Origin: Candidatus Altimarinota bacterium
GTDB lineage: Bacteria; Patescibacteriota; Gracilibacteria; UBA1369
DNA length: 32,000 nt
Reading direction: 5' to 3'
Assembly: GCA_041659405.1 (NCBI GenBank)
Contig: JBAZYK010000001.1
Location: 90,001 to 122,000, forward strand
Shown: one piece after another, positions 620 to 31,959 of the stretch
How positions within the stretch are numbered: the first letter of the stretch is position 1
Layout of the letters: the number at the start of each line of letters is the position of its first letter
Program-made: the position numbers and the translations under genes
Notes under the pieces: generated by a model
Told to the model about the DNA's origin: nothing
What the model saw: the letters and a program-made list of their open reading frames with translations, nothing else
Database searches by the model: none

Positions 620-677
620 CTCGGGATGTGGGACTTAGGTTCAATTATAAATTATAAAATTTCTTAATTAAAACGAC

Positions 678-11112: not shown

Positions 11113-11141
11113 TTGCCTTTCTCACAAAAAAATTATATATT
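11113..11141 (+). promoter_or_regulatory. Candidate sigma70-type promoter of the pilin gene
   Basis: TTGCCT (11113-11118), a 17-nt spacer, then TATATT (11136-11141), 29 nt upstream of the ATG at 11170. Confidence 0.45.
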
Positions 11142-11169
11142 TATTAAGAATTTCTTTAACAAAATACAC

Positions 11170-13074: not shown

Positions 13075-13082
13075 GTTCGTAT

Positions 13083-14782: not shown

Positions 14783-14921
14783 GAAAAGAATTAAAATTGT
14801 AACAAAAAAAATAGAAATATTGCCTACTGATGACTTCAGGACGATTATAAAAAAAATGGATAAAATCCGGATAAAAATTAAAGGATTTAACTCCGTGAAG
14901 TTCATACACAGTAATAGGTAA
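14775..14921 (+). CDS. Small basic ORF (48 aa) overlapping the PIN gene 3 stop (ATGAATAA)
   Basis: MNKKRIKIVTKKIEILPTDDFRTIIKKMDKIRIKIKGFNSVKFIHSNR. Conserved C-terminus NSVKFIHSNR. Confidence 0.55.
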   Translation: MNKKRIKIVTKKIEILPTDDFRTIIKKMDKIRIKIKGFNSVKFIHSNR

Positions 14922-14983
14922 GCCTAAAAAGGCGTGTTTTCCCGTAACTGCGCGCGACGATTGAAATTATTTCACGGCTGCGG

Positions 14984-16008: not shown

Positions 16009-19000
16009 ATGTCTGAATACAAAAACATACAACGAGTTATTGCCGGCCTGATCCTCTTCTTTTTGAACGTCCAAATTTTGGAAGTTCCGCTTAGTAAAGC
16101 GGCTCAGGACTGGGCAGCGCAGGGGCAAGCAAACGCCGCATCCGCCCAAGGCGCTTTATCCACCATTCCATCCGCAAAAGCCGTTGATCCAAATCAAAAT
16201 CCGGCAACTTTGCCTCATTTGGGAATCATCGCCATTTTGGTTGATGACGATTTGATGAACAATAAACAAAATTATGCCGGGCTAACGGCTCAATATGCAA
16301 AAGACCTGAATACTCAATTGCTTTCCGACCGTGTTCATCGTTATGCGATTGACGCGCAGAGCTCGCAGCCGAATACAAAATCGCTAATAATTAAAACTTC
16401 CCCAACCTCAAAGGTTGAAGATATTGCAAATAGCTTAGAAAAGTTGTACCTGGAAGGTGATGGCAGCAAGGGCAAAATCACCAACCTGGTTGGAGTTGTC
16501 ACAATTGGTGATGTGCCTTTGCCGGTTGTGAATAAAAATGGTTATCGTTTTGTAAGCATGATGCCTTATACCGATTTTGAGGATAAGGTTTATATTTTTG
16601 ACGCGGCCAGTAGCGACTATCTGCCAAATCCAAATTTAAAATTTGCCAAAGAAGAAGTCTGGCAGGGCGTGATCAAACCTCCACTAAAAGGCGAAGAAGG
16701 CAATAATCTTTTGGCTTCTTATTTCGACAAAAATCATCTGTATCACGCCGGAAATGCTGATTATTCCGTTTTTGATAAAAAGCTTTTATTTGCGGATCTG
16801 TACAACGAATTCAAATCCATGAATAAATTGCAGTTTAATAGTTATTTGCGCTACTTGGCGCACTGGGCCGATTTTGCTTATCTGCGTTTTAATAAACATT
16901 TAGCTGATCAGTTTTTGCAGGAAGTTACGGGCAAACTTAAGGAGCAGGGCGTACCAACAAGTACCAAGGATGCACAGGCGACAGCGGCAAAACAGCAGGC
17001 TGAATTAAATCAGGCCGGAATCCCAAGTGATGGGTTGTTAACTCCCCCATGTGATAAAGATTGCGAGGATGCCAAGAGTAAAAATCCAAAACTTCCCAAG
17101 GGCGACAATAATGTGCAAGCCGCGCCCTCTTCAACCAATAGCATGCCGGATATTCAAACCCGCACGCTCATTTTGAATTTTGTAAGTAAGTACGTTCAGC
17201 TTTTTGATAAATTTTTATCAACAATTAATGATTGGGCCAATTATACCGGCCGCTATAAGGCTGCTTATGAGGATGGCAATGGCAACACTTTAAGCGACAT
17301 TCACAGTATTCCGGCGCTTATAAGTATCAAGGATCAAAATACCAGTGAATATTTTAAACAGGTAAATGACAGCATTGAAAGTGCGATAGACCAACGTGCC
17401 CAGGAACTGCAAAACAGCATGTTAATGATCCAAAATGTTCACTTGAGTGGACAGGTTTTGCTTAGTGGACAACCAAAACCACAAGACCTTTTACCATGGG
17501 ATTTTGTGAATTTTTCGGAACATACTTTTGGCAATTTTAAGACTTTATCCGTAAATGGCGTTCCGGCTTTTGCAATGCAAAGCACGGCTGATTGCAGTAT
17601 TTATCGTGGATCAAACAACAATGGCACAAATTCGGTGATGACAAAATCAATCAAGATTTACAATCCAAAATCGGCAAGTCAAAGTGAAAATTTTGCCGAT
17701 GACATTGTTAATTTTGGTGGATGTTTGGGCAATAATTATAGCCACCCTGAACGCTGTTTCCCGGAAGCTGCGATTGTTCCGGTTTTTGACCTTGTGGGGT
17801 CCAAAGAAGTTGATCCTGCAACCGTTCCGGAAAGTGCCACAAATTACCGCGCCTGCTATGATTTTAAAGAGAAAAATAACTTTGCAAAATACATTGATCA
17901 GGTTGGAACATACCTGAAATTATTTAAATTATTGAAAGATGATCCGACCGCACAAGACTCGCTCGATCCAATATTAAAAACGTTTGGGTCTTCACATCTT
18001 CCCACGTCACAAATATTTATTTTTATATCGCCAAATGTGTTTATCACCCTGGCTGATGTTTTAAAGAAATTAAATATTCCCGCTGACGACTGGGGGCAGA
18101 TTGGTGAAGGCTTTTTGGCTAATCTAAAACAAAATCAGTATGTGCTAAATAACCCTTTTCCCGGTGTTGATTCTTTGACTATCAATTTAACCGCCGAGGC
18201 GGCTGTGGATAATTTGAAAAATGCTCCGATAATTTTGCCAACAATTTCTTATCATAAAGAGCCGACTGCGGATGTTCATAATAAGCCTTATACAAGTATT
18301 AATGAACAATTGCAGGCCGGTGGATTTACCGAAAGTTTACCAAGTGATAATCCCCGTTATGTGGCTTTCCAAGACAAACAAGGGTACTTTCAGAAAATTT
18401 ATTATCCGGATGCTTTTTCGGCAAAAAGTTATAACGATTATTTAAAATCATTACAGGACACCGAAAATAAAATTCTTGATCTGTATGGAAAATTTGACGT
18501 TAATCTGGCTCAAAAAAATGAACACTTCTTAACGAAATTACTTGGGGAACAGGATCAACAAAACGCTAAGGACAAGAGCATTTTTGACATTATTGGTGCC
18601 GCAAAATTGACGGATGCTTTTTCCTGGAAAGATTTGAATATCGATCAAAAGCATAATTATGTATTTACCGAATATTTGGGCGCAAAGGCCGATCCATATG
18701 TGGAAAAAATGAAGAGTGGTTATGAAGCCATGTATTTTGTGAGCCGTGGAAGTACGGATACTTTCCAAACGCAATTTAATGGCGATTATCCGGAAGATGA
18801 CAAGGATTTAAGTTTGGATAGTGCTTTGCATCCGGCCAATACTCCGGAAACTTCACCAAGTGATGCCGGTTATGCTAAAGCCAAAGAAGAAGGTGAAGGC
18901 ATCTTTATTTTTGAATGGTTTAAAGAAATTGTTAAGTGGGTCAAAGAAACCACCAATAAATTAAGCGCGACTATCCAACTTGAGCCGGTTTGCGGCGTGA

Positions 19001-22000
19001 ATGATGGAAAAGATCCTGAAACCGGTGGGGCCGGTGTTGGCCAAGGGCCTGTGAGTCAAACGGCAAATACAAGCAGGTTGATGATTTCCGCCAATAAAAA
19101 TGTTTTAAAAACAGGCTCCGGTGATACTTTGACTTTGACGGTTGTAGGCGTGGATAACAAAAATATTATCCAGGCTGCAGATAGTCAAACCATGGTTGAT
19201 TTGACCATTTCCAAAAGCAATGGACAGGATGTGGTGACAATCGCAAGTACTCATCCAATGCAATTAAGCGGCGGGCGCACGACTTTTATGCTTCAGGCTA
19301 CGGATGTTATTGGCAATGTAACGGTTAATGCGTTTGTTCAGGGCAAAAAAATCACTTCCAATACTGTGCCTATCAGTTCGACCAAAGGCAGCATTCGACT
19401 ACTTTCTTATGTGCGTACTACAGGTGTTGTTTACGCGGAAAAAGTTGCTTCCGGATTTATAATTAAAGATGCAAATGGAAATGTGATTGCAGAAGTGGAT
19501 GGCAAAACCGGCATGGTGACAATTAAAGATGATCGTTATCAGCTTTTGGCACAACCTTCGGAAGGGGCTAAACCGGTGCGTCTTTCGGTTCAACAAAAAA
19601 CCGGAGATCTAATTGTGGCGAGTGTCTTTTTTGCGGTTGATGGAAAACAGCCGATTTTAATTGATGGCCCGGATGTTGATTATCTGAAATCTTTTGCCGA
19701 TCTTGCTGGCGTGCATCTAAAAGATCTTTCCAATAAAGATGATTATTCCGCGCAAAAATCGAGTAATTCGTTTAACAAAAATGGAATTTATTTATACGAA
19801 AAAAATGGAAATAATCAAAATAAATTTGGCATTATAGATACTTTGGGGAATGTTTACCTTGCGGCCGGTTTTGGCTTTCAGATGAAGTCCCCTGCGCAAG
19901 GAGCTGATCCGGTTATTTTCCAGATTTTGGGCAAAGACAATAAAGCTTTATTTGAAATTTATTTGGGTATTCAGAATCCAACGGTGCAGATTCTGAAGCC
20001 CGAAGGTGATTATGCCGCTTACAATACTTTGAATAAGTCCCAGTCTGATTTTAATGAAATTCTACTTCAGGGCGCGTTTAAATTGCCGACAGGTAGCGAA
20101 AGTCAGAATTCGGACCTTTGGAATAAAGGCGCTACTGCAGGCGTTATTCCGGACAGTGATAACGATGGCTTAAACGATCTGCAGGAACTTTTAATCGGCA
20201 CTAATCCAAAGAATGCGGACACCAACGGTGATTTGATTAAAGATGGCGACGAAATCAATAAAAATCTTAGTCCGTTCATTAAAGATACGGCTCTGTTTAA
20301 AGATTTAACGCCGGCGCACGAAGCCTTTAACGATATTTTAAAACTTTATAAACGTGGAATTATTTCCGGTTATGCCGATGGAACCTTTAAGCCTGAAAGA
20401 TTATTAAGCCGTGAAGAATTTGTAAAATTGGATTTGGGAGCCATTTGTATTTATTGCACAAAACTAAGCGAAACTGTGAAGAAATCAATTGACGCGGTTT
20501 ATAATCAAAGTCCTTTCCCGGATAAAAACTTTACGCCAAACCTCTTATATTGTGTTAAAGAGGCCAAAAATCGTTCGATCGTTTCCGGATATAAAGGCGG
20601 GAATCAAGCCGGATATTATTTGCCGACCAATTCAATCAGCCGCGCGGAAGCGAGCAAAATTATTTTGGAAACCGCACGTCAGCAGGGAAACAGTAAAATC
20701 GCCGTTGATCCTTCAATTCCGGATGGCAAACCATGGTATTACAATTACGTTTTAACCACTCAAAAAGAACATTTCTATCCCAACGGTCGCTTTAAAGAGC
20801 TTGATACACTTGCTCCCGCTGAGTTTAAAACCTGGTTTGATGCTCAGTTACAACAGGCTGCAAGCGGACAAAGTAATGCCTTTGTGACTTGGATTTCCGG
20901 TGGAATTACGCGCGCGGAATTTTCGATTATGGTTTCCCGTTTGATCAATAAAACCGATTGTTTCGCGGACGACCAGGACCACGAGGGCTTATCCGATAAT
21001 CTGGAAAAATATGTGTATGGAAGTTCTCCAACCAATCCGGACACGGATAATGGCGGCGTTGATGATTTTACGGAAGTCGTAAATCAGATGAATCCGCTTG
21101 ATAAAAAAGATGATAATGATTCCGATGGCGATGGCATGCCAAACAGTTTTGAGGTTAAATATGGCTTGAATCCGTTTGATCCTACCGATACAAATAAGGA
21201 TAAAGACTTTGATGGTCTAACCAATTTGGAAGAATATCAATATGGAACCGATCCGTCCAATCCTGACACGGATGGTGGTGGCGTTAACGATGGCGATGAA
21301 GTTTTGCAGAAAATAAATCCGCTTGATGCCAAAGACGATTTTAAAAATGCCGGTGCCAAAAACGGTTCATACATCGTTGGCGACAATATTTTTGATAACT
21401 ATGTTTTTGACCAGCAAACACCTCCGGCCAATACTTCAAGTATAAATTTTGAAGATCAGGTGCCGGCAGATGGCAAGAGCAAGCTGTTTTTACGCGCAGA
21501 AGTTTTAAATGACAATGGCGACATAGATACCGCCCAAAATGGAACGGTTAAAATTTATCGCAAAACGGATTCCGGGAATTTTGCCAAGATTTCTCCCGAT
21601 CAGGTTAAATTGCAAAAGGGCGTTGCCGAAAGTGAAATTACCGCTTCTACCCACGCCGGTGAATATGTGGTTAACGCAGAATTGAATGGCAAGAAACTTC
21701 CGGTGGATGATAAATCAATTTTTGTTACACCGCTTGATCCGGCCAAAATCGAAATAAAAGTTGAATCTGCGTCTATTAAAAGTGGTGGGTTATCCAACAC
21801 AATTGCTTATGTTTATCTTGAGGATGTAAACGGCAATATTGTAAATAATGGCACTAATCAATTAACTTTTACTGTTGATGGACCCGGCCTGATTACTACC
21901 GGGGATGAAGATCCACAGCAAGATGGCATACAACTTTCAAGCGTCAGTGGTGAATTTGAGGTCATGATCGCTTCACAAAAAGACCCCGGACAAATTACAT

Positions 22001-25000
22001 TAAAGGCAACCTATCAGGCGCCGATTGATGAATTGGTAAGCCCTGAATTGGCCGCGGGTACCCAGGCGGTTACTCATATTTACTCGCGTGATGATTTGCA
22101 TTTGACGCTTATTCCGGCAAATGGAAGTATCCCATCCGATTACAGCACCGTTACAAGTTTGCAAGCTTCCGTGCTGGATAAAAATAATCAGGTTGTAAAA
22201 AACTTTAATGGAGTGGCACAGTTTGCTCTGCTTGACCCGCAACTTGGGAAACTGGTTTCAGGCTCTTCACAAGCGGTAAAAAACGGTCAGGCGCAAAATG
22301 CTTTTCAGGCAAGTAACAAAGCCGGTGATGCTAACATTTCTGTGACAATAAATGGATTTGATCCTGCAAACGCGATTGTAAAAACTGCTCCAAAAGAGGC
22401 CAAGAAAATTGTTTTAGAGGCGGCAAGCGATACAATCGAAAGCAATCCTTCATCAATAATGGAGGTTATTGGCAAACTTTATGACACCGACAATAATTTG
22501 GTGACTAATAACTCGACTACCCAGGTGACTATTCGCCTTACGGACGCAACCAAGCCTTATGGATTATTCGACAACCAGGCTGTACAAGCCAAAAACGGTA
22601 TCGTGAAATTCGCTCTTCGCGGGACGGGGAAAACCGGCCCAATTAACATTATTGCTTCCGCGAAAGGACTTTTAGATGGTGGTTTGCAACTTCAGAGCGT
22701 AAATAATTTCAAGGCGGATGATTTAAAAAATATTAATCCACAGGTTTTATTTGCCGCGGTTTTGGGTTCGGCTTTTGGTGATACATTTAAGGATAACTAT
22801 CTTGGTGGATGGTTCCTGTTTTCGGGAAAAACCCAAAGTGTACTTTCGTTGATGAGTGATCCAAAACCACATTTGGGACTTGTTCAAGTGGATTATAGCG
22901 GACGAATTAAAGCTTTGAGCAGTGATAGGCTTGAGTCTAAAATCATTCCCGGGAATGCGGTTAATCAGCCTACCCGTGTTATTTACACAGACACATTGAC
23001 CAGCCAAAACATCGCGGAAGTTTTTGCGATTGCCAAACCACAAACTGCGGCAAAGGTTTTGGCTGCGCAAGCGCCCGTTGCAAATCTGGCTGAAGGTATT
23101 TATCTGCAGAATCTTTCAGATACTCAGGATTATAGTGTTGCTCAGGCCGGTGACAGCGTAAGCCTGGTTAATAAAGGTAATGAAGCTGTGAAGATTTTCA
23201 ACAATGGCGCGGTGAAAATTTTTGATAACAACTTTGCCCTTAAATATGACCCTGCGGCCAATGATGCCTATTTTATTTTACAAATTTATGATGGTGGCGT
23301 CGCGGCGGCCCAAATTATTTATGCCTATGGCTTTAGCGGCGATGTTCAAAAATTACCGTTTGAATTTGCGTATTCCAATCAAGCAAATTATCAACCGGGT
23401 GTTTATGTACACATGCTGGATTCCGGTAAACAGTTTGAATTACTTCCATCTTTTTCTGGTAACTCAACCGCTTTGCCACAGGGCGCGCTAATCACGGATA
23501 CAAGCGAAGAAATGGCTAACACTCAGGCTCCCGGACTAAGTTATTCTTCAATTGAAACGGCAGCGGATAATCCCGGTGTTGGCTTTCAGGGCGATAATAA
23601 ATTTATGCTGCTTTTCTCCGCTGGTAATTCCGTGGGCGAAGCAAACGTGCCATACGCTTCAGAAATTGGCGTGGTGCTTGGTGATCCTACAGTCCGCCTA
23701 AATAATAAAATCAATGTTTCCAAAACCGGATTCACTCAAGATATTGGTCAGGAAATTTATTTTGGGAATGCCGTAATTCAGGAAATGCAGCCAATAGATT
23801 ATAACTCCGATGGCAATAAAGATTTGGTTGTGGCTTATCAGGATGGAAAAATGCGCTTGCTGCAAAATACCAATTCTTATCCGCGCTTTACGGATAAAGG
23901 CGTGCTGCTAAATTTCCCAAATGGAATAATCAGTTTTACGGTTGGAGATTTTAATAAAGATAATCAACCGGACATTGTGGTTGCTTCACAAGATAGCTGT
24001 AGAAAGGGCGAAATCTGCATTGATGAATATGTGAATAATAATGGTAATTTTGTTCGCAACCATTTAAAGTTGCAGGGTTTCACCGATAAAAATCGCATTA
24101 ACATGATTCGCTCCGGCGACATGAATAGTGATGGTTATGCAGACCTGGTTACCTCCGATGATGCAGGGGTAATCCGCGTTTTCTATAATCGTGGTGGCAG
24201 TTTTGACAAAGGCCAATTCATTGGATCACTGGGCGTTCATATCGCTCAAAACGATAATTTAAAAACCGAAGTTTTGGTTGCTTACGACGGCATGCCGAAA
24301 GTTGATCCTAAAGATTCAAACAGTGAACTTAATTTCAGAGAATTGCCGGTGCAATTGCCTAGGAGTGGCTTAAGCGCTGCAGATCAGCAGGCTTATGATG
24401 AAGCTCTTAATTCCGGATCGGATGCTGCAACTATCACAAGTTCTCCGTTAACGGATCAAACTCAGACTCAATTTCTTTTTGCCGATGTTGATCCGGCACT
24501 TTTTGCGTCCGAAAAACGTGCCAAGGATTTAACGCCTCCACTTGATACTTTGGCTCGTGGCGATGAAGTGGCTTACACAATAACTCTAAAAAATAGCGGT
24601 AATAATGATTTGCAAAATGTAATGGTGAGTGACGTTGTGCCAACAAGCATGGAAATTGAAAAAGATACAATTACCTGTAACGACTGCGGGAAAGAAACCA
24701 TGCGAATTGGTGAAACCGGAGAAAGTTTACGTCCGTATATTTTCAGCGGATTCAGTATTCCTAAAAAAGGAGAGCGCACTATTACCTATAAATCCAAAGT
24801 TAAAACTACGCCAAGAGTAAAAATTTATCTTGGTCAGAATTTGGATGCTGCCTATCCACAGGATAATTTTATGGATATTGGCGCCGCTCCGGATGGAAAT
24901 AACACCGGAAGAATGACTTATTTCTATTCGATTTCACAAAATCAGGTTAGTCAAGAAATGAATTATGGAACTTATGTTTCTCCTCCGCCGGATCCAAAAC

Positions 25001-28000
25001 TGGACGCACCTCCTCCTCCGGCAGATCCTTTAGGCATTGGGTCGCCTACTCCAAGCATGTTTGAGCTAAAAGATGATGACGGTATTCCGATTGTTTTAAA
25101 GGATTATCAGGACAAGCAAAATGGCGCGCCAAATGTAGATCAGACAATTTCCGATGAAGATTCGGACGGTTTGTCCAACTCCTGGGATGATTTTAATCAG
25201 GGGCTAAATGATCTTGATGCGGGCATTAGCAATGCCGCAGATGGCATTCAGGGCGCGATTGCCATGTTTACCTGTGGTGGTGGTTGTATTCCAATGCCTG
25301 TGAATTTTGCTTTTTTGGCTACCGGAAGTATTAACGTAATGGGTCTTCCGCTTGGCTTTGATCCCGGCTTGCCGGTTTTTGGCTGGGGCGCCCCATACCC
25401 GCCATTTCTTTGGCCGGGTAGCCCTTATCAGACAACACTTGGTGGAAGAATTTATCTTTCCCCAACTGCAACAATGAGCCTTGGAGTCGGTGTTTGTATT
25501 GGGCCATATCCGGTGGGCCTGTGTTGGGCCATTTCAGTCCCTCCGGTACTTTTGGGAATGGCAGGAATGTGTGAAGCGATTTCCGGCGGAATTGGAAAAG
25601 CTTTTGCCGGGGTCAATAACGCAATCCAATCGGTGAATAATTTGACCATAAGTTCAGATGGCACGCCACCGGACGCGGATAGCTCCGGCAGGTCCGAAAC
25701 AGGCGGGGTTAAGGGCAGCGCGACTTTGGGGAATTATCAATACAAAGCCAGTGTTGGAACCAATTTCCGTATACCCGGATTCCCTGCATTTATTACCAAA
25801 TGGATCAGCGATCAAACTTCTGAAATCATTAATAAATTGACCGATTTACCGGACTTTTATTTCTTATATCCGGACCCAACTTCCATCATTGGAATGGTTG
25901 TTCCAACCGATGAAGGTCAACAAAGTGGCAATTCCAAACGCACAAAATCTTTTACTTTCCCATCTTTCTCGGCTGATCCGTTTAAAGATAAAAGCGGTTT
26001 GGTGAAAGTGGCAAACACTTTTAATCCAAATAAAATTCTGGCTTTCATGAACAGTTTGCCGCTGATTCAGATTGAAGCTAAAGAAGTTACAATTAAGATT
26101 CCGGCCCTTTCAGATAAGGAAATCGAGAAATTCAAAGCTGACGCGCAACAATGGGTTGAAGATGAACGCAATGAAGTTAACAGAGTTTTAGCCTTGTGGG
26201 GATGCGGTAAAAAGCACCTTGATGCAAGCTGGAATCTGGTTACCGAAGACGGTGATTATGTGTCACCTTACCAAACCATGTGTGACAAATTGCTCTTAAA
26301 TATGACAGATTTGAAGGGAGCAATCGAAAAAAATATTGCCGTAATTGAGGCATATAAGGAATTGCCACGTCAAATTTTGGCCTGGAGAAATATTTACAAG
26401 AAATACCTTACTCAAATTATTTGTTATATTGACGCGATAATTCAATTCACCGGCGGTTATATTAAAAAACAACAGAGTCGCATAATGCTCTGGATTAAAA
26501 TGATCAAGGAAGTTAAAGAGCTGATTGAAACATGGAAAGCCATTCTTGATTTAATTATTAATTATCAGGCTACGTGTGACCGCTGCAGTAACGCGCGCTT
26601 TACGCTGGTGGAACTTATTTTGCGTCTGTTTGCCATAATTCCGGCGCCACCCGTGATCCCTTTTCCAAAGTGGCCGGATATTTATCTGGATTTGTCGCAG
26701 GTTAAAACCGGCTTAAAGATTTTATGGCCCGATGTGAAATTTATTCCCGAACGGTTGATCCTGCCAAAAATTCCTAGGTTAATTTTGCCGGATTTACCGA
26801 CATTGACGCTTAATTTGCCGGAGATTCCGGTTATCCCGGGTCCACCAAAAATCAATCTTGATTTGCCGGATTTACCACCGTTGCCACTTCCTTCTTTGCC
26901 GGATATTCCACCTCCACCAAAGGTGCCCGGTATACCGGCACAGGTTAAAATCGTGATCAATATCATTAAAACCATTCTTAGGATATGGTGCATGATTAAA
27001 AAAGGACTCCTGCCGGTACCTGAATTGATGCTTAAGGGGCATATCGAACAAATGACAGAGCGTTCGCTTTCTCCGCTGCTGCCAATTGATTTGGGAATCA
27101 AACTGCAGTTCCCGCCAATTAAATACGAATCACTGGATCGTATTGAAATTATTGGTAAAACAAATTTCCAACTTGAGTTTGGATTCATTTATGACTTTGT
27201 GAATAACCTTGCCGAAAAATGGAATTCGCTTGCGACCGACCTGGTTAATCTGCTTAATAAAAAAGTCCAGGATGCCGCCAAGGCTGCCCAATCCGCCGCT
27301 GATGCCGCCAACAAAGCTGCTAAAGAAGCCGTGCCGGGTGGAAATATTGATGTAGGCCCGGGTGGCGTAAACAAGAGCAGCAGCTTGATGCAGTTAATCG
27401 GTTCCATAGAACATAATTATGTCGCGGATAGCGGCACAATGAGTGATATTGCCGAAATTAAGGCGATGGCGCAGGAGCTTGGCGATACAGGCACTTCTGC
27501 CGATGTTAATGCCCTTTCTGTTCCGGTTGAAAATATGACAAATGCAGATTTGGATAGCATTTTGAAACAGCTTGAGCAAAATGATCCATATCTTGGATCG
27601 GCGCTTAAAGAATTAAAGATCGCCTCAAAAGATTTGGAAAAAACCGCTAAAGATGCCGCTGAAAATAATAAGGAAATCGAAAAAGATATTCATCTAACAG
27701 CAACCGAAACTTATTTGTCTAAAGATGATCCGCTTTTAAACCGCTCACTTTCCGACGTGAAATCGGGTATTGCGCTACAAGATCTGCCAACTCTTGATGT
27801 CCAAAATAAAATGGTGGCAATGCGTGATGCATTTATTAGTTATTCCGATGATCAAACATCTGCCAACGATCAAATTAACCAAATGCAGGATCTGGAAAGC
27901 ATTGGCCGATTCTTGGCTCAAGCTAAGCCACTTCAAGACTACCTCAAACAGGATGTAAATGGTGAAAACCGCGGGGTGGCTGCAATTGGCAGTGACAGCG

Positions 28001-31000
28001 CGACTTCATCCTTTACCACAAGTTTAAATCCAAGTTCCAATTCGTCAAAAGGATTCAATGCAATCAATGACCAGCTTTCAATGGCCGAGTCTTTCGGTTC
28101 ATTTGCCGAAGATGCCCGCAAAAAATTCACGGAAGGCACTCGTTATTTGGCTGCTGTAAGCGGCCCACCGGATACTGCCGGCAATTTTACTCCGCAGGTT
28201 ATTCCTAAAGGACTTTATATTTATAATCCGGTTGATCAGATCAACGAGCGTTTAATTAAATATACCGCTGAAGTTGATCAACCGGCGCAAATGGCTTTTA
28301 TTGATGCGAATGCCGACTCCGATGAAGACTTCTTTTACGCTTATGGCAGCAATATTTACATGAAAGAAAATTATAAGATTCCGGATGTTCCAACATTTTA
28401 TGCCGGGGATCCAAAAGAATATCAGTTGAGCGATATATTGCCGGCTGCTCCGGAAGTTAATAATTTTGAAACGGTTTTAAATAATAATAAAAATATTGAA
28501 CTTACGTGGAATATGGCAACCTATAGCGATGTTTCCGGATACGAAATTGCTTACGGCTTAACACCGGATACTTTTGCGGGGGCTGCAGATGAACCTTCAA
28601 ATCTGCCGGTTCATAAAATTGGTGCGCTGATTGATTCTGCAATTTTGCCTAACAATGAAGATCAGGTTATTAAGGCAATAATCAAGAAAGGAACTTATCA
28701 AATAAATGGGGTGCCACCTGCCGCAGACGGCCTTGTTACCGCTGATCAGCCACTGCAAACCGATGACGGCAGTGAGGTTGAATTGAATTACAGCGCCAGC
28801 GCAAAAGTTACGGTGCCGGGTAATGTTATGTTTAGGCCGCCAACAATTTCAGGTCCGCAAATGGTCGCGGCCAACGTGCAGGGTGATGTGTTTTTCAGCG
28901 GACCGCAGCGCACTATTTTACTTTCCGGTTCCAATAAATTCCAGATTCCCGCTAATGCTTCCATCCACGCAATGACGGCAACAGCTTTGAATTTTTATGT
29001 TAAAGATCAGCTAACTGCGACTATGCTATTGCCGCTAAACGCCGTGTTCCAAGTTTCAAAAAATTATACGGATCCAATTTCCATTCAGGTTCAAAATGGT
29101 GGAATAGAAGTTGTTAATCCGGATAAAATCGTTCCTCATCAACGAATAATTAACGGTTTGATAATGGATTACGATCTGCCAATTACGTCCGAGAATGGCG
29201 GCACGGCCAATGTTCTGTTTGCGAATGGTTCTTATATGCGGGTTGATGTTAATGAAGATCTAACTTTTAAAAAACTAAATGCCACCGATACGCCGGACCT
29301 TAAACTCGAGCTGCCAAATGGCTTCTATTACGCACGTATTCGTTCTTTTGATCACCTGGGTTCACTTGGCACAGTTTCCAGTTTGAATCTTTTGGCTCCG
29401 ACAATTTGTGCCGATAAATCAGATCCATTCCCAAATGGTGGTGAAAGTGAGCGAACAGTTTCAATCTTTAAGACTTTAAAAATTGACTCTTCCAAGTCTT
29501 TTGCGCCGGACGGGAAAATTATTTTGTATTATCTTGATACCGATTTAACCAAAGACAGTGACAACAACGGTGACCTTACAGATGATAAAAATATGGGTCA
29601 CGACTTGGATACCCATGCCGATTCCGATGGCGATGGCATAACCAATAATGACCTTGATGCCGCGGTTTTTGAACTTGGACCATATACCGATCTTAAAGAC
29701 CGTGAAGTGATGTTGAATGTTGTGGATGAAGGCTTAAATCGCGCTCAGCAAAAAATCACTATTCATGTGGTTGTGCCGAATATCAAACTTGACCCGGAAA
29801 CCGCTACACAGGGCAAGATCCAGGGAAGTATCAACATGCCGGAAAACAATATTCCAATTGCCTTTGTGCGTGATCGTGGCGGTGTTTTGACGCCAATTCA
29901 AACTAAATCAGCCAATAGTAATGGAAAATATTTCACAGATGATAATGGAAAATTTGTGGTGAATGATTTGAATTTGAAAGACACGATTGTAATTAAGAAC
30001 AGTCAGGGACAAATTATTGGCGAAGTTGATCCAAATACCGGAAAAGTTATTTTGAAGGATAACCGCTATCATTTGGAAGTTTTGCCTGCAGAAAGGCCTC
30101 TTTTGCCAACTCGTATTGTTACCAAAGAAACAGCCACCGGCCTAATTATCAATACGATGCTGCTGATTCCGGATGCGAATACAGATACCACAATCGATAA
30201 ACCGGATCTGGTTTATAACTCCACCGGTGTTGGCATATTCAATGGTGTTCATGCCAAAGATGGAAATACTTTTGATGAGTTTGAATATAATAAAATTCCT
30301 TCCGATGATGCCAATTATCCGGGTGGAATTGAAATCACAGAAACAACAACCAAAAAACGGGCCGCGATTTTGGATACCGGTGGAAATTTCTATGTGCTGG
30401 ATAGCCGCTTAAGCCTGCGCTTAAAAGACACTACTTCTTTGGAAGATCCGCTGGTGATTGAAATTGTTTTGAATAAAGATTCCGCAAGTACGGTTATCGG
30501 CGAGTTCTATGTTGCCGTACACAGCACTAAGGGTTTGCAAATGCTGCCAAAGGCCAAGTTCCAATCTTATGTGGACCAGGCCAATAGCCGTGGACCTTTG
30601 TATGACAGCGACAATGACGGCATGCCGGATCAATGGGAACTTATTTATGGCTTAAGTCCAAAAGATCCTACCGATGCCGGCAAAGATAACGACAACGATG
30701 GTCTGACCAATCTGGAAGAATATCGCGCAAGCACTTCTCCACTTAATCCGGATACAAACGGTGATGGCATTTCTGATGGTGATGAATTGAAATATGGCCG
30801 TGCTCCTGGCAAAAAACTGGTTCTGCCTTACAGCGATATTGCGCAAAATCATCCTTACTATGAAAGTATTTTCAAGTTGTGGATTCGTCGCATTTTTGAA
30901 GGAATTCCGGGCTGGGGAAAGCAGTTGTTTGAACCTGATTCTTATCTTACACGTGCCGAATATGCGGACTTAATGTTGAAGATTTTCTGTATTATTCCGC

Positions 31001-31959
31001 GTAAGGAAGCCTATGACGGCCCTTCACCTTTTAATGATGTACCGTATGTAAAAGGCCAATTGCCATGGTATTACGCCATTATCAAAGAAGCTTTTTTCCA
31101 GGGTTTTGTTACAGGTTATCTTAAAGATGCTAAACAAATTCCTTACAAACCAAATGGCACTATTTCACGCGCGGAAGCGGTTAAAGTGATTTTGGAAGCT
31201 CTACAAAAACAGGGAGTGATTGAGATGGGCCAGATTCCGGCATTACCCGCTGGAACGCCTTATTATGCGCCTTACATGCAAATTGCCCAGGATTTGACGC
31301 CTTATTTAAAGAAGGCCGGATCTGTTAAAAAGCCATTTATTGTTACTGCGGATGAAGCAGCGCGGCCGGAAGATCCATTAACAAGAGCCGGATTTTTGGC
31401 TATGGCTGACCGCGTTTTGACAACTTCGGATTGTTCGGTACTTGATGATGATCACGATGGCATGCCAAGTCACTGGGAACTATTAAATGGCTTGAACCCA
31501 CACAATGCCAGCGATGCGGCAAAAGATCCGGACCGTGATAACCTAACCAATTTGGAAGAATATAAACACGGAACCGACCCGCATAATCCGGATACGGATG
31601 CTGGTGGCGTTAATGATGGCGATGAGGTCAAGAAAAATGGCACATTCCCGCTTGATCCGGCTGATGATCATTCGCAGCCACTGATTTCCGCGCCTGCCAA
31701 TTTGCCTGATCCACGCAGTGATTTGACCGAAGGGGTCTACATTATTCAGGATCCATGCGCAACTTGTCCTTGTCCTTCGGCAATCGACCACACCGCCGAT
31801 CTGATTGTTGGTGATAAAGTTTTTGGTTTGATTTCCAATAATGACAAACTCAAGCCAATAATTTACAGCAAGAGCAACGAAGTTGAAATTACCGAAATCC
31901 CGCAGCCGGATGCCGCGGCAACGTCACATGTGATTATTGAAAAAGTCGTTCAACAATAA
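16009..31959 (+). CDS. Giant multidomain surface protein (5316 aa): signal peptide, Ig-like, TSP3-like Ca-binding, SLH, FG-GAP/VCBS, DUF11-like and FN3-like parts, plus a hydrophobic Gly/Pro/Cys-rich core
   Basis: A 15,951-nt frame with no stop in AT-rich DNA; every ORF on the other five frames is at most 168 aa. N-terminal signal-like segment IAGLILFFLNVQILEVPLSKA. TSP3-type repeats (DSDNDGLNDLQE, DTDNGGVDD, DSDGDGMPNSFE..., DTDGGGVNDGDE). SLH motifs (FKDLTPAHEAFNDILKLYKRGIISGYADGTFKPERLLSREEFVKL; FNDVPYVKGQLPWYYAIIKEAFFQGFVTGY...ISRAEAVKVILEAL). FG-GAP motifs (DYNSDGNKDLVVAYQDGKMRLLQN, GDFNKDNQPDIVVA, GDMNSDGYADLVTSDDAGVIRVFYNRGG). DUF11-like LARGDEVAYTITLKNSGNNDLQNVMVSDVVP. Confidence 0.85.
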   Translation: MSEYKNIQRVIAGLILFFLNVQILEVPLSKAAQDWAAQGQANAASAQGALSTIPSAKAVDPNQNPATLPHLGIIAILVDDDLMNNKQNYAGLTAQYAKDLNTQLLSDRVHRYAIDAQSSQPNTKSLIIKTSPTSKVEDIANSLEKLYLEGDGSKGKITNLVGVVTIGDVPLPVVNKNGYRFVSMMPYTDFEDKVYIFDAASSDYLPNPNLKFAKEEVWQGVIKPPLKGEEGNNLLASYFDKNHLYHAGNADYSVFDKKLLFADLYNEFKSMNKLQFNSYLRYLAHWADFAYLRFNKHLADQFLQEVTGKLKEQGVPTSTKDAQATAAKQQAELNQAGIPSDGLLTPPCDKDCEDAKSKNPKLPKGDNNVQAAPSSTNSMPDIQTRTLILNFVSKYVQLFDKFLSTINDWANYTGRYKAAYEDGNGNTLSDIHSIPALISIKDQNTSEYFKQVNDSIESAIDQRAQELQNSMLMIQNVHLSGQVLLSGQPKPQDLLPWDFVNFSEHTFGNFKTLSVNGVPAFAMQSTADCSIYRGSNNNGTNSVMTKSIKIYNPKSASQSENFADDIVNFGGCLGNNYSHPERCFPEAAIVPVFDLVGSKEVDPATVPESATNYRACYDFKEKNNFAKYIDQVGTYLKLFKLLKDDPTAQDSLDPILKTFGSSHLPTSQIFIFISPNVFITLADVLKKLNIPADDWGQIGEGFLANLKQNQYVLNNPFPGVDSLTINLTAEAAVDNLKNAPIILPTISYHKEPTADVHNKPYTSINEQLQAGGFTESLPSDNPRYVAFQDKQGYFQKIYYPDAFSAKSYNDYLKSLQDTENKILDLYGKFDVNLAQKNEHFLTKLLGEQDQQNAKDKSIFDIIGAAKLTDAFSWKDLNIDQKHNYVFTEYLGAKADPYVEKMKSGYEAMYFVSRGSTDTFQTQFNGDYPEDDKDLSLDSALHPANTPETSPSDAGYAKAKEEGEGIFIFEWFKEIVKWVKETTNKLSATIQLEPVCGVNDGKDPETGGAGVGQGPVSQTANTSRLMISANKNVLKTGSGDTLTLTVVGVDNKNIIQAADSQTMVDLTISKSNGQDVVTIASTHPMQLSGGRTTFMLQATDVIGNVTVNAFVQGKKITSNTVPISSTKGSIRLLSYVRTTGVVYAEKVASGFIIKDANGNVIAEVDGKTGMVTIKDDRYQLLAQPSEGAKPVRLSVQQKTGDLIVASVFFAVDGKQPILIDGPDVDYLKSFADLAGVHLKDLSNKDDYSAQKSSNSFNKNGIYLYEKNGNNQNKFGIIDTLGNVYLAAGFGFQMKSPAQGADPVIFQILGKDNKALFEIYLGIQNPTVQILKPEGDYAAYNTLNKSQSDFNEILLQGAFKLPTGSESQNSDLWNKGATAGVIPDSDNDGLNDLQELLIGTNPKNADTNGDLIKDGDEINKNLSPFIKDTALFKDLTPAHEAFNDILKLYKRGIISGYADGTFKPERLLSREEFVKLDLGAICIYCTKLSETVKKSIDAVYNQSPFPDKNFTPNLLYCVKEAKNRSIVSGYKGGNQAGYYLPTNSISRAEASKIILETARQQGNSKIAVDPSIPDGKPWYYNYVLTTQKEHFYPNGRFKELDTLAPAEFKTWFDAQLQQAASGQSNAFVTWISGGITRAEFSIMVSRLINKTDCFADDQDHEGLSDNLEKYVYGSSPTNPDTDNGGVDDFTEVVNQMNPLDKKDDNDSDGDGMPNSFEVKYGLNPFDPTDTNKDKDFDGLTNLEEYQYGTDPSNPDTDGGGVNDGDEVLQKINPLDAKDDFKNAGAKNGSYIVGDNIFDNYVFDQQTPPANTSSINFEDQVPADGKSKLFLRAEVLNDNGDIDTAQNGTVKIYRKTDSGNFAKISPDQVKLQKGVAESEITASTHAGEYVVNAELNGKKLPVDDKSIFVTPLDPAKIEIKVESASIKSGGLSNTIAYVYLEDVNGNIVNNGTNQLTFTVDGPGLITTGDEDPQQDGIQLSSVSGEFEVMIASQKDPGQITLKATYQAPIDELVSPELAAGTQAVTHIYSRDDLHLTLIPANGSIPSDYSTVTSLQASVLDKNNQVVKNFNGVAQFALLDPQLGKLVSGSSQAVKNGQAQNAFQASNKAGDANISVTINGFDPANAIVKTAPKEAKKIVLEAASDTIESNPSSIMEVIGKLYDTDNNLVTNNSTTQVTIRLTDATKPYGLFDNQAVQAKNGIVKFALRGTGKTGPINIIASAKGLLDGGLQLQSVNNFKADDLKNINPQVLFAAVLGSAFGDTFKDNYLGGWFLFSGKTQSVLSLMSDPKPHLGLVQVDYSGRIKALSSDRLESKIIPGNAVNQPTRVIYTDTLTSQNIAEVFAIAKPQTAAKVLAAQAPVANLAEGIYLQNLSDTQDYSVAQAGDSVSLVNKGNEAVKIFNNGAVKIFDNNFALKYDPAANDAYFILQIYDGGVAAAQIIYAYGFSGDVQKLPFEFAYSNQANYQPGVYVHMLDSGKQFELLPSFSGNSTALPQGALITDTSEEMANTQAPGLSYSSIETAADNPGVGFQGDNKFMLLFSAGNSVGEANVPYASEIGVVLGDPTVRLNNKINVSKTGFTQDIGQEIYFGNAVIQEMQPIDYNSDGNKDLVVAYQDGKMRLLQNTNSYPRFTDKGVLLNFPNGIISFTVGDFNKDNQPDIVVASQDSCRKGEICIDEYVNNNGNFVRNHLKLQGFTDKNRINMIRSGDMNSDGYADLVTSDDAGVIRVFYNRGGSFDKGQFIGSLGVHIAQNDNLKTEVLVAYDGMPKVDPKDSNSELNFRELPVQLPRSGLSAADQQAYDEALNSGSDAATITSSPLTDQTQTQFLFADVDPALFASEKRAKDLTPPLDTLARGDEVAYTITLKNSGNNDLQNVMVSDVVPTSMEIEKDTITCNDCGKETMRIGETGESLRPYIFSGFSIPKKGERTITYKSKVKTTPRVKIYLGQNLDAAYPQDNFMDIGAAPDGNNTGRMTYFYSISQNQVSQEMNYGTYVSPPPDPKLDAPPPPADPLGIGSPTPSMFELKDDDGIPIVLKDYQDKQNGAPNVDQTISDEDSDGLSNSWDDFNQGLNDLDAGISNAADGIQGAIAMFTCGGGCIPMPVNFAFLATGSINVMGLPLGFDPGLPVFGWGAPYPPFLWPGSPYQTTLGGRIYLSPTATMSLGVGVCIGPYPVGLCWAISVPPVLLGMAGMCEAISGGIGKAFAGVNNAIQSVNNLTISSDGTPPDADSSGRSETGGVKGSATLGNYQYKASVGTNFRIPGFPAFITKWISDQTSEIINKLTDLPDFYFLYPDPTSIIGMVVPTDEGQQSGNSKRTKSFTFPSFSADPFKDKSGLVKVANTFNPNKILAFMNSLPLIQIEAKEVTIKIPALSDKEIEKFKADAQQWVEDERNEVNRVLALWGCGKKHLDASWNLVTEDGDYVSPYQTMCDKLLLNMTDLKGAIEKNIAVIEAYKELPRQILAWRNIYKKYLTQIICYIDAIIQFTGGYIKKQQSRIMLWIKMIKEVKELIETWKAILDLIINYQATCDRCSNARFTLVELILRLFAIIPAPPVIPFPKWPDIYLDLSQVKTGLKILWPDVKFIPERLILPKIPRLILPDLPTLTLNLPEIPVIPGPPKINLDLPDLPPLPLPSLPDIPPPPKVPGIPAQVKIVINIIKTILRIWCMIKKGLLPVPELMLKGHIEQMTERSLSPLLPIDLGIKLQFPPIKYESLDRIEIIGKTNFQLEFGFIYDFVNNLAEKWNSLATDLVNLLNKKVQDAAKAAQSAADAANKAAKEAVPGGNIDVGPGGVNKSSSLMQLIGSIEHNYVADSGTMSDIAEIKAMAQELGDTGTSADVNALSVPVENMTNADLDSILKQLEQNDPYLGSALKELKIASKDLEKTAKDAAENNKEIEKDIHLTATETYLSKDDPLLNRSLSDVKSGIALQDLPTLDVQNKMVAMRDAFISYSDDQTSANDQINQMQDLESIGRFLAQAKPLQDYLKQDVNGENRGVAAIGSDSATSSFTTSLNPSSNSSKGFNAINDQLSMAESFGSFAEDARKKFTEGTRYLAAVSGPPDTAGNFTPQVIPKGLYIYNPVDQINERLIKYTAEVDQPAQMAFIDANADSDEDFFYAYGSNIYMKENYKIPDVPTFYAGDPKEYQLSDILPAAPEVNNFETVLNNNKNIELTWNMATYSDVSGYEIAYGLTPDTFAGAADEPSNLPVHKIGALIDSAILPNNEDQVIKAIIKKGTYQINGVPPAADGLVTADQPLQTDDGSEVELNYSASAKVTVPGNVMFRPPTISGPQMVAANVQGDVFFSGPQRTILLSGSNKFQIPANASIHAMTATALNFYVKDQLTATMLLPLNAVFQVSKNYTDPISIQVQNGGIEVVNPDKIVPHQRIINGLIMDYDLPITSENGGTANVLFANGSYMRVDVNEDLTFKKLNATDTPDLKLELPNGFYYARIRSFDHLGSLGTVSSLNLLAPTICADKSDPFPNGGESERTVSIFKTLKIDSSKSFAPDGKIILYYLDTDLTKDSDNNGDLTDDKNMGHDLDTHADSDGDGITNNDLDAAVFELGPYTDLKDREVMLNVVDEGLNRAQQKITIHVVVPNIKLDPETATQGKIQGSINMPENNIPIAFVRDRGGVLTPIQTKSANSNGKYFTDDNGKFVVNDLNLKDTIVIKNSQGQIIGEVDPNTGKVILKDNRYHLEVLPAERPLLPTRIVTKETATGLIINTMLLIPDANTDTTIDKPDLVYNSTGVGIFNGVHAKDGNTFDEFEYNKIPSDDANYPGGIEITETTTKKRAAILDTGGNFYVLDSRLSLRLKDTTSLEDPLVIEIVLNKDSASTVIGEFYVAVHSTKGLQMLPKAKFQSYVDQANSRGPLYDSDNDGMPDQWELIYGLSPKDPTDAGKDNDNDGLTNLEEYRASTSPLNPDTNGDGISDGDELKYGRAPGKKLVLPYSDIAQNHPYYESIFKLWIRRIFEGIPGWGKQLFEPDSYLTRAEYADLMLKIFCIIPRKEAYDGPSPFNDVPYVKGQLPWYYAIIKEAFFQGFVTGYLKDAKQIPYKPNGTISRAEAVKVILEALQKQGVIEMGQIPALPAGTPYYAPYMQIAQDLTPYLKKAGSVKKPFIVTADEAARPEDPLTRAGFLAMADRVLTTSDCSVLDDDHDGMPSHWELLNGLNPHNASDAAKDPDRDNLTNLEEYKHGTDPHNPDTDAGGVNDGDEVKKNGTFPLDPADDHSQPLISAPANLPDPRSDLTEGVYIIQDPCATCPCPSAIDHTADLIVGDKVFGLISNNDKLKPIIYSKSNEVEITEIPQPDAAATSHVIIEKVVQQ

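What the first reader, a model, noticed from the sequence alone, without database searches (positions are those of the whole stretch)
25250..26940. Hydrophobic Gly/Pro/Cys-rich core and LP.IP proline ladder in the middle of the giant protein
The segment at 25250-25640 encodes AIAMFTCGGGCIPMPVNFAFLATGSINVMGLPLGFDPGLPVFGWGAPYPPFLWPGSPYQTTLGGRIYLSPTATMSLGVGVCIGPYPVGLCWAISVPPVLLGMAGMCEAISGGIGKAFAG. It is unusually hydrophobic and aromatic and rich in G, P and C, unlike canonical TM helices and unlike the surrounding soluble domains. Downstream lie a helical region with paired cysteines (…LALWGCGKKH…QTMCDKL…QIICYID…QATCDRCSNARF…), hydrophobic stretches (LVELILRLFAIIPAPPVIPFPKWP, VKIVINIIKTILRIWCMIKKGLL) and a ladder of LILPKIPRLILPDLPTLTLNLPEIPVIPGPPKINLDLPDLPPLPLPSLPDIPPPPKVPGIP. 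SLH anchors, which are extracytoplasmic, occur on both sides. The core is therefore either a re-entrant or even-pass membrane insertion or a membrane-active or host-inserting element. I cannot match it to a named family.
Basis: partly seen in the sequence, partly recalled or inferred. Interest (0 to 1): 0.6.

Follow-up and report, generated by a model that had tools for sequence, protein, structure and literature searches.

The report
Uncharged folded core of giant surface protein
The greasy, glycine/proline/cysteine-rich middle of this 5316-residue cell-surface protein is a real, strongly conserved and undescribed folded module of ultra-small (CPR) bacteria. It is probably an uncharged contact head held on helices, not a membrane-spanning segment, and its function is still unproven.

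Summary
The hydrophobic core is aa 3083-3201 of one 5316-aa ORF (window 25255-25611). It is the most charge-poor stretch of the protein (4 charged of 119, P=2e-8).

It belongs to a ~740-aa two-part module (aa 3044-3300 and 3340-3780) that defines a family of giant proteins. That family has 640 representatives at 50% identity. Module A is in 285 of 401 genomes of the class (Peregrinibacteria plus TGA-recoded Gracilibacteria, including an oral taxon).

Pfam, NCBIfam, PDB sequences and Foldseek (PDB, BFVD) gave no match.

AlphaFold2 folds the core as a compact six-stranded beta unit (pLDDT 82-94) between two long helices. No run free of proline and charge exceeds 16 residues. Only 25% of relatives reach transmembrane-level hydrophobicity. 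Cysteines are gained and lost in pairs, and the genome encodes DsbB. An own-membrane span is therefore unlikely. What is conserved is near-absence of charge (4.8% over 230 sequences), even in a variable aromatic loop.

In four relatives the gene follows pilus genes. In all five relatives checked, and in this genome, it precedes three or four homologous exported proteins.

Best reading (0.4): an apolar contact head of an attachment complex.

This scan met the same module before on other DNA (e1-4390141).

The parts
16009..31959 (+). Giant ORF, 5316 aa (P0001)
   Evidence: single copy in the genome
16036..16092 (+). N-terminal hydrophobic signal or anchor, aa 10-28. It is the only helix-grade hydrophobic segment in the protein
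   Evidence: Kyte-Doolittle 19-residue mean 2.11
20296..20988 (+). SLH triplet A (aa ~1430-1660), inside duplicated anchor super-module A (aa 1150-1703)
   Evidence: Pfam SLH E 6.7e-15; motifs at aa 1467, 1544, 1634 and the duplication
25138..25908 (+). Module A (aa 3044-3300): helix 3058-3087, uncharged beta head, helix 3185-3209, disordered loop, helix 3260-3278, conserved PGFP / LPD..YPD motifs
   Evidence: conservation; AlphaFold2
25255..25611 (+). The charge-poor beta head proper is aa 3089-3188 (25273-25572), with strands 3106-10, 3113-18, 3124-26, 3146-52, 3158-64 and 3171-77
25909..26025 (+). Variable linker between modules A and B (aa 3301-3339)
   Evidence: low column occupancy and a split of HMM hits here
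26026..27348 (+). Module B (aa 3340-3780): long helices 3369-3396, 3422-3449 and 3452-3522, a beta hairpin around the PKWPD motif, the ladder, an amphipathic helix, and closing helix 3725-3774
26203..26283 (+). Loop bounded by C3399 and C3425, a probable disulfide
   Evidence: both present in 142, both absent in 53, discordant in 19 of 214 sequences, phi 0.79
26575..26586 (+). Near-invariant CxxC (C3523, C3526)
   Evidence: Cys in 97% of 74 and 100% of 214 sequences
26731..26937 (+). Leu/Ile-Pro ladder (aa 3575-3643): hydrophobic-Pro dipeptides spaced mostly 3 apart, with many Pro columns at or above 90%
   Evidence: modelled without helix or strand, pLDDT ~75-83
26938..27000 (+). Lys-rich amphipathic helix (aa 3644-3664) carrying near-invariant C3661
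30856..31428 (+). SLH triplet B (aa ~4950-5140), inside duplicated anchor super-module B (aa 4660-5221)
2..1955 (+). PilB (T2SSE, C-terminal part) and PilC (T2SSF) genes of the linked type IV pilus cluster
   Evidence: Pfam E 1.4e-59 and 3.5e-55; same order in relatives
11113..11697 (+). Pilin or pseudopilin gene (N_methyl, T2SSG)

Best explanation
The region is the folded, extracytoplasmic, disulfide-stapled core module (aa ~3044-3780) of a giant wall-anchored surface protein. It is not a span of the cell's own membrane.

Module A holds a compact, almost charge-free beta head (aa ~3089-3188), rich in Gly, Pro and aromatic residues, between two long amphipathic helices. Module B is a long helical bundle with a disulfide-closed loop, a CxxC, a conserved amphipathic polyproline-type ladder and a Lys-rich amphipathic helix.

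I read the head as an intermolecular apolar contact surface. It would be the working end of an attachment complex that comprises the giant protein, four co-encoded exported proteins and, in most lineages, the adjacent type IV pilus. It would be held away from the wall by the Ig-like, propeller and TSP3 arms and pressed against the envelope or membrane of another cell.

Shown here: conservation, composition, predicted fold, absence of helix-grade hydrophobic runs, paired cysteine gain and loss, gene neighbourhood, and taxonomic spread.

Inferred: that the cysteines form disulfides, that the head is exposed, and above all that its partner is a foreign membrane or envelope rather than a protein.
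For: Fold and exposure:
- The head folds confidently on its own (pLDDT 82-94). Adding module B does not raise confidence (76-89, pTM 0.46). AlphaFold2 therefore gave no confident A-B arrangement, so nothing suggests that the apolar surface is covered within the chain.

Charge:
- Charge is excluded family-wide: 4.8% charged over 230 sequences, against 19-27% in the flanking helices and module B.
- The sequence-variable loop 3119-3146 stays at 2.3% charged, 15.8% aromatic and 31% G+P.
- A loop that varies yet remains apolar suggests an apolar environment rather than one fixed protein interface.

Not a transmembrane span:
-, and the beta prediction.

Extracytoplasmic and oxidised:
- SLH domains flank the module on both sides.
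- Two cysteine pairs co-vary (3399/3425 and 3135/3140).
- C3163 and C3172 face each other across the predicted hairpin.
- DsbB and a CsaB-type pyruvyl transferase are present in the genome.

Conservation:
- The module is among the best-conserved blocks of the protein.
- It is a single-copy gene, and module A is found in 285 of 401 genomes of the class. It behaves as conserved machinery, not as a variable recognition domain.

Neighbourhood:
- In four relatives the operon order is PilMN-like, x, PilB, PilC, one to three pilins, the giant, then four exported proteins.
- A fifth relative (L104) lacks the pilus genes but keeps the downstream genes.
- This genome also carries the four downstream genes.

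Position and lifestyle:
- In this protein the module sits midway between two wall-anchor super-modules.
- In the 73 relatives with both anchors, the arm lengths are held at about 1390 and 1060 aa.
- Published genomes of this group lack fatty-acid synthesis and are inferred symbionts with large exported proteins (PMC4736985).
Against: - There is no direct evidence of lipid or host binding.
- Absolute hydrophobicity varies widely (mean Kyte-Doolittle 0.04-1.07). In TGA-recoded Gracilibacteria the core carries more polar residues and more cysteines.
- The two-anchor 'apex' geometry holds in only 73 of 193 full-length relatives; 111 have SLH on the C-terminal side only.
- Foldseek found no similarity to fusion proteins or pore formers. 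The best viral hits had E above 0.2 and envelope proteins had probability 0.01.
- I could not read model coordinates, so neither surface exposure of the head nor Cys-Cys distances were measured.
- The constant four-gene partner cassette fits a protein partner equally well.
Confidence: 0.4

Rival explanations
1. Assembly hub. The uncharged head and the helices are buried in a protein-protein interface. That interface could be a homo-oligomer of the giant protein, or a complex with the four exported, helical, cysteine-bearing proteins encoded right behind it. The module would then be the structural core of a surface complex and never touch lipid.
For: - Homologues of cassette proteins 1-3 accompany the giant in every locus examined, including L104, which has no pilus genes upstream. 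The fourth gave no BLAST match in L104 or L106.
- Gene ends overlap, as in stoichiometric complexes.
- The module and an N-terminal block are the family-specific conserved parts.
- The head has a confident defined fold.
- Module A does not exist as a stand-alone protein.
Against: - The loop 3119-3146 varies in sequence and length and gains an extra Cys pair in subsets, yet stays uncharged. A fixed protein interface would be expected to conserve sequence.
- The eight invariant cysteines are an even number, and C3472 is lost alone in about 40 sequences. No intermolecular disulfide is required.
- No multimer prediction could be run.
Confidence: 0.3
2. Ordinary domain core. The strands are hydrophobic only because both faces of the sheet are covered by the two flanking helices and by module B. 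The module would be a rigid structural joint or spacer of the stalk with no special contact role. The ladder would pair with a helix as in the antigen I/II stalk.
For: - The order helix, sheet, helix.
- The ladder has the 3-residue periodicity of an amphipathic polyproline helix and is modelled with moderate confidence next to long helices.
Against: - Two helices cannot cover a six-stranded unit together with its 28-residue aromatic loop.
- Charge is excluded from loops as well as strands in 230 sequences.
- Such strong conservation and near-universal single-copy presence is more than a spacer needs.
- Foldseek returned no antigen I/II entry among the hits listed.
Confidence: 0.13
3. Own-membrane insertion. 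The core and the two downstream hydrophobic stretches dip into or cross the cytoplasmic membrane an even number of times.
For: - In this protein the core reaches a 19-residue Kyte-Doolittle mean of 1.70, and aa 3532-3550 reaches 1.82.
- Both flanks must be outside the cell.
- The arms are long enough to reach back to the membrane.
Against: - Predicted beta structure at high confidence.
- Proline every few residues, with the longest run free of proline and charge only 16 aa.
- 75% of relatives fall below 1.6.
- Invariant and pairwise co-varying cysteines.
- The second and third stretches contain E/R and K residues and are short or amphipathic.
Confidence: 0.07

Closest known systems
Giant cell-surface proteins of CPR and other epibiotic bacteria (e.g. 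the 1392-4163-aa membrane-proteome giants of Vampirococcus lugosii, PMC8080830; large exported Cys-rich proteins of Ca. Peribacter, PMC4736985)
   Same: Very large, exported, built from DUF11, integrin-like FG-GAP and Ig-like domains. They occur beside rich type IV pilus repertoires and are presumed to mediate host attachment. [quoted passage not shown]
   Different: None of the four papers read describes this central module, and Peregrinibacteria giants were assigned no COG (PMC11573180). Three families of the same class lacked the module in the genomes searched (0/64, 0/12, 0/8).
SLH-anchored S-layer and wall proteins
   Same: SLH triplets, with a CsaB-type pyruvyl transferase in the genome.
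   Different: SLH accounts only for the anchors. There are two triplets about 3000 aa apart, and the module between them has no counterpart in described S-layer proteins.
CdiA of contact-dependent inhibition (from my own knowledge, not tested)
   Same: A giant surface filament whose functional centre lies mid-sequence at the distal tip, followed by a Tyr/Pro-rich returning segment. It shows that an element in the middle of the chain can be the working end.
   Different: CdiA is a two-partner-secretion protein of diderm bacteria built of FHA repeats. There is no sequence or fold similarity. This is an analogy of logic only.
ClyA-family pore formers (hydrophobic beta tongue on a helical bundle), viral fusion loops or peptides, and the hydrophobic translocation regions inside large soluble toxins (named from my own knowledge)
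   Same: An apolar, Gly-rich element displayed on long helices inside an otherwise soluble protein.
   Different: Foldseek against PDB and BFVD gave no hit with E below 0.2. The head is a larger, compact, Cys-stapled six-strand unit. No trigger or oligomer is known.
Antigen I/II (SpaP/SspB) stalk, and amphipathic polyproline repeats such as gamma-zein (VHLPPP)n
   Same: The ladder is made of hydrophobic-Pro dipeptides with 3-residue spacing and a charged third position. It lies next to long amphipathic helices.
   Different: There is one ladder of about 65 residues with near-invariant positions, not tandem A and P repeats. No antigen I/II entry appeared among the Foldseek hits listed.
Type IV pilus tip or accessory adhesins (PilY1/PilC class)
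   Same: Encoded directly after pilin genes in a pilus operon and contains propeller-type repeats.
   Different: Ten times larger and wall-anchored by SLH, with no PilY1 or PilC family hit. L104 keeps the giant and its downstream genes without the pilus genes.

Membership tests
Helical transmembrane segment (re-entrant or even-pass) | About 19 or more consecutive apolar residues able to form a helix, conserved as such in relatives | tested here: not met
   The longest run free of proline and charge is 16 aa. The region is predicted as beta. The family median of the 19-residue Kyte-Doolittle maximum is 1.42, and only 25% reach 1.6. No dedicated topology predictor was available.
Any curated protein family (Pfam-A, NCBIfam) | Profile match above the curated cut-off within aa 3044-3780 | tested here: not met
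   No hit in the region for this protein. Pfam scans of 82 module-A and 74 module-B sequences gave only scattered hits below cut-off.
Any solved or viral predicted fold | Foldseek E <= 0.001, or a PDB profile hit | tested here: not met
   Best Foldseek E was 0.82 and 0.69 (PDB) and 0.21 (BFVD). The best PDB hmmsearch E was 0.073. The AlphaFold database of cellular proteins was not available.
SLH-anchored wall protein (whole protein) | SLH domains above the Pfam cut-off | tested here: met
   SLH scored 55.2 bits (cut-off 20.8) at aa 1430-1471 and 22.5 bits at aa ~4966-4986. The genome has a PS_pyruv_trans gene.
Disulfide-stabilised extracytoplasmic domain | Cysteines conserved or gained and lost in pairs, with an oxidising system present | tested here: met
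   Pairs 3399/3425 (phi 0.79) and 3135/3140 (phi 0.92), with eight invariant Cys. DsbB scored 49 bits. The bonds themselves have not been observed.
Class I/II viral fusion proteins and ClyA-type pore formers | Shared fold of helical bundle plus fusion element | tested here: not met
   No significant Foldseek match. Envelope and F proteins appeared only at E 3-7 with probability 0.01.
Antigen I/II-type alpha/polyproline stalk | Polyproline helix wound against an alpha helix | tested here: inconclusive
   The periodicity fits and the ladder is modelled as non-helical with pLDDT ~75-83. Coordinates could not be inspected, and no antigen I/II entry was among the Foldseek hits listed.
Type IV pilus-associated protein | Conserved operon linkage with PilB, PilC and pilins | tested here: met
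   Four relatives at 29-35% identity and this window show the linkage. One locus lacks it. No physical association has been tested.

The most novel reading that the evidence does not exclude
The module is the business end of a previously unrecognised cell-to-cell contact device of Peregrinibacteria and Gracilibacteria. A wall-anchored giant protein, deployed together with a type IV pilus and four dedicated exported partners, would push a Cys-stapled, charge-free beta head into the membrane of a host bacterium to dock, extract lipids or open a conduit. That would be a new class of bacterial membrane-insertion element with a new fold.
Probability: 0.18. Interest if true: 0.85.

Novelty: new variant of a known kind. 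Interest (0 to 1): 0.55.

Why it matters
Peregrinibacteria and Gracilibacteria are uncultured, inferred symbionts that cannot make their own lipids. How they hold on to and feed from other cells is unknown.

This module is the conserved, family-defining core of a single-copy giant surface protein. Module A was found in about 70% of the class's genomes searched, including TGA-recoded lineages and a human oral taxon. The gene is tied to pilus genes and to a fixed set of partner genes.

The module has no recognisable relatives, so it marks a concrete, expressible target of about 250-740 aa for asking what the host-contact apparatus of these bacteria is. If the uncharged head proves membrane-active, it would be a new kind of insertion element. 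If it is an assembly hub, it defines the architecture of a new surface complex.

Tried and rejected
- **Family and structure searches.** Pfam and NCBIfam on the whole protein in three pieces, and Pfam on all members of the module A and B alignments, gave no family in the region. PDB profile searches and three Foldseek runs gave nothing significant.
- **Intermolecular disulfides.** I considered that an odd number of cysteines forces an intermolecular disulfide with the cassette proteins. I dropped the idea: C3472 is lost on its own in about 40 sequences, so it is probably a free buried thiol. The remaining invariant cysteines number eight.
- **Apex geometry.** 'Midpoint between two wall anchors' is not a family rule. 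Only 73 of 193 full-length relatives have SLH on both sides.
- **Stand-alone versions.** A search for module A in short proteins found only three fragments on contigs of 1-2.6 kb.
- **Other processing signals.** By eye I looked for a lipobox, a sortase signal, a thioester motif, a GPS or SEA-type autoproteolysis motif and a hydrophobin Cys pattern. I saw none, and none was formally tested.
- **Literature.** Three searches and four papers read gave no description of the module.
Full report
**1. What is there**

The window's right half is one ORF, 16009-31959 (+), encoding 5316 aa. The hydrophobic core is aa 3083-3201 (window 25255-25611).

The core has 18.5% Gly, 12.6% Pro and 4.2% Cys. It has only 4 charged residues in 119, against a protein-wide 21.4% (P=1.8e-8). 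It is the unique charge minimum of the protein, with 2 charged per 100 residues against 8 at the next-lowest place.

The Cys-bearing helices, the two short hydrophobic stretches and the Leu/Ile-Pro ladder follow as described. The ladder (aa 3575-3643) ends at 26937, which matches the end of the finding.

The only helix-grade hydrophobic segment in the whole protein is the N-terminal signal or anchor, aa 10-28.

SLH triplets lie on both sides. Each is embedded in one copy of an internal duplication, aa 1150-1703 vs 4660-5221 (E 3e-60).

**2. It is a conserved module, not a local oddity**

A search with aa 3060-3720 found 129 giant proteins of 2900-6200 aa at 26-61% identity and nearly full coverage. 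Where named, they come from Peregrinibacteria, Gracilibacteria or Patescibacteria.

Alignments delimit two conserved blocks joined by a variable linker:
- module A, aa ~3044-3300
- module B, aa ~3340-3780

A profile search of 1.84 billion representatives gave 640 hits, 358 of them below 1e-30. Nearly all of the best 150 carry the module as one stretch. In the full-length proteins it lies mid-chain. The rest are partial sequences or split matches.

Module A does not occur as a short stand-alone protein. Only three fragments were found.

Across genomes:
- Module A is in 285 of 401 genomes of the class (242 of 342 high-quality ones).
- It is in 12 of 12 genomes of the window's own family.
- It was not found in three families (0/64, 0/12, 0/8).
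- Outside the class, none of the phylum's genomes sampled had it.
- Many hits contain in-frame TGA. Read with code 25, these Gracilibacteria, including oral taxon HOT-871, keep the same C-G-x-G-G-x-C ... P-L-N-x-A-P-L-A-P-G and P-T-L-T-G-G motifs, with additional cysteines.

Along the giant protein, the module is among the best-conserved blocks, together with aa 101-300 and the FG-GAP block. There is a caveat: the relatives were selected through this region.

**3. No known relative**

- Pfam and NCBIfam find Invasin/Big, SLH, TSP3, FG-GAP and DUF11 in the arms, but nothing between aa ~3000 and 4800.
- Scanning every member of the module A and B alignments gave only scattered sub-threshold hits.
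- PDB profile searches gave nothing.
- Foldseek of both models against PDB and of the full model against BFVD gave nothing better than E 0.2.
- The AlphaFold database of cellular proteins was not available.
- The papers found speak only of large exported proteins in these phyla (PMC4736985, PMC8080830, PMC6851277). They also note that Peregrinibacteria are among the bacterial phyla most enriched in proteins over 5000 aa, with no COG assigned to them (PMC11573180).

**4. Predicted structure**

With 74 sequences, aa 3040-3790 gave mean pLDDT 72 and pTM 0.46. Module A alone, with 82 sequences including code-25 ones, gave pLDDT 82-94 over aa ~3096-3180.

The order of elements in module A is:
- helix 3058-3087
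- six strands: 3106-10, 3113-18, 3124-26, 3146-52, 3158-64, 3171-77
- helix 3185-3209
- a disordered loop
- helix 3260-3278

Module B has helices 3369-3396, 3422-3449 and a 70-residue helix 3452-3522. A hairpin around PKWPD follows, then the ladder without regular structure (pLDDT ~75-83). After it come the Lys-rich helix 3644-3664 and a closing helix 3725-3774.

The head is therefore predicted as a compact beta unit held between helices.

**5. Against a membrane span**

- Proline interrupts the core every few residues. The longest run free of proline and charge is 16 residues.
- Over 232 relatives, the 19-residue Kyte-Doolittle maximum of the core has a median of 1.42 and reaches 1.6 in only 25%. 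This protein (1.70, mean 0.83) is near the hydrophobic extreme.
- Cysteines 3089, 3093, 3163, 3172, 3188, 3523, 3526 and 3661 are invariant or nearly so.
- C3399 and C3425 are present together in 142 sequences, absent together in 53, and discordant in 19.
- An extra pair at 3135/3140 appears together in 27 sequences and singly in 4.
- C3163 and C3172 are cross-strand neighbours in the predicted hairpin. This is my inference.
- The genome encodes DsbB, and a CsaB-type pyruvyl transferase that fits working SLH anchors.

All of this fits a folded, oxidised, extracytoplasmic domain.

**6. What is really unusual**

The conserved property is not transmembrane-level hydrophobicity but exclusion of charge. 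Over 230 sequences, aa 3089-3188 is 4.8% charged, and much of that is the conserved D3118 and R3147. The flanking helices are 19-21% charged and module B is 27%.

Even the loop 3119-3146 stays at 2.3% charged, 15.8% aromatic and 31% Gly+Pro. This loop varies in sequence and length and gains a Cys pair in some lineages.

Adding module B to the prediction does not raise the head's confidence. AlphaFold2 therefore gave no confident A-B arrangement, so nothing suggests that the apolar surface is covered within the chain. It must meet something else: copies of itself, partner proteins or lipid.

**7. Context**

In four relatives at 29-35% identity, the gene order is as follows:
- a ~440-aa protein with a weak PilN hit
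- a ~200-aa protein
- PilB
- PilC
- one to three pilins
- the giant
- four exported proteins without Pfam hits, often with overlapping gene ends

The window shows the same order, interrupted by SLH-protein genes and PIN cassettes. The four downstream genes (217, 234, 588 and 371 aa) lie just past its end and are homologous to those of the relatives.

One relative (L104) lacks pilus genes upstream. It keeps four downstream genes, three of which match the cassette.

In this protein the module lies midway between the two wall anchors. Among 193 full-length relatives, 73 have both anchors, with arm lengths held at about 1390 and 1060 aa. Another 111 have only the C-terminal anchor.

**8. Reading**

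Most likely (0.4): an apolar contact head on a helical stalk. It would be the working end of an attachment complex that is linked to a type IV pilus in most lineages, and it would meet another cell's envelope.

Nearly as likely (0.3): the head is buried in a homo- or hetero-oligomeric hub with the cassette proteins.

An ordinary buried domain core or spacer (0.13) and own-membrane insertion (0.07) are less likely.

The cysteine-parity argument for intermolecular disulfides failed.

The ladder has the 3-residue periodicity of an amphipathic polyproline helix. It may pack on a helix as in antigen I/II, but that could not be checked.

**9. Novelty**

The module is a new domain pair inside a known kind of protein, the giant wall-anchored surface proteins of CPR bacteria.

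The same module was met earlier in this scan on other DNA (e1-4390141), with a concordant verdict. I reached mine independently.

This report adds several results:
- the charge-exclusion statistics
- the hydrophobicity spread across the family
- the cysteine covariation
- the presence in code-25 lineages
- the class-wide distribution
- the anchor-architecture census

Noticed in passing
window 14984-15652 (-), repeat at 15357-15577: A minus-strand gene for a 222-aa, probably coiled-coil protein lies just upstream of the giant gene. It contains a 57-nt tandem repeat of 3.9 copies at 94% identity, which encodes a 19-aa unit (RFAEFEKKMDAKMDEKFDL). The 176-aa ORF on the + strand is its antisense shadow. 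No Pfam family was found.
   Followed up: partly
window 1982-15000: Compared with relatives, where pilins directly precede the giant gene, the pilus-to-giant operon here is interrupted by three SLH-protein genes (547, 1050 and 956 aa), a MazE-like antitoxin plus PIN pair (7178-7900) and three further PIN genes.
   Followed up: partly
L092-L094, L097-L099, L102, L103 (e.g. L103 = CP017714.1, Gracilibacteria HOT-871): TGA-recoded Gracilibacteria, including a human oral taxon, carry the same module. Their core is longer, more polar and has 7-8 cysteines instead of 5, including CC and CG..C motifs in the variable loop.
   Followed up: partly
class-wide search: Module A is near-universal in most families of the class but was not found in three families (0/64, 0/12, 0/8 genomes, mostly over 95% complete). 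This points to lineage-specific loss or replacement of the whole apparatus.
   Followed up: no
window 19456-21117 and 29986-31671 (aa 1150-1703 and 4660-5221): An internal duplication of a ~560-aa wall-anchor super-module (unknown domain, TSP3 repeats, SLH triplet, TSP3 repeats) at 29% identity, E 3e-60. Most relatives have only the C-terminal copy.
   Followed up: yes
window 31756-31773 (aa 5250-5255): A CxxCxC cluster lies about 60 residues before the C-terminus of the giant protein. Conservation was not examined.
   Followed up: no
L046 (JAUVQE010000014.1): A contig carrying a typical family member is deposited in a MAG labelled Nitrospirota. It is probably a mis-binned Peregrinibacteria contig.
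   Followed up: no
G000:C1:122056-126467 (L108 157-4568), just past the window end: Four genes for exported proteins (217, 234, 588 and 371 aa; 5, 3, 10 and 6 Cys) follow the giant gene and are homologous to the cassettes behind distant relatives. Homologues of the first three persist even where the pilus genes are not adjacent.
   Followed up: partly
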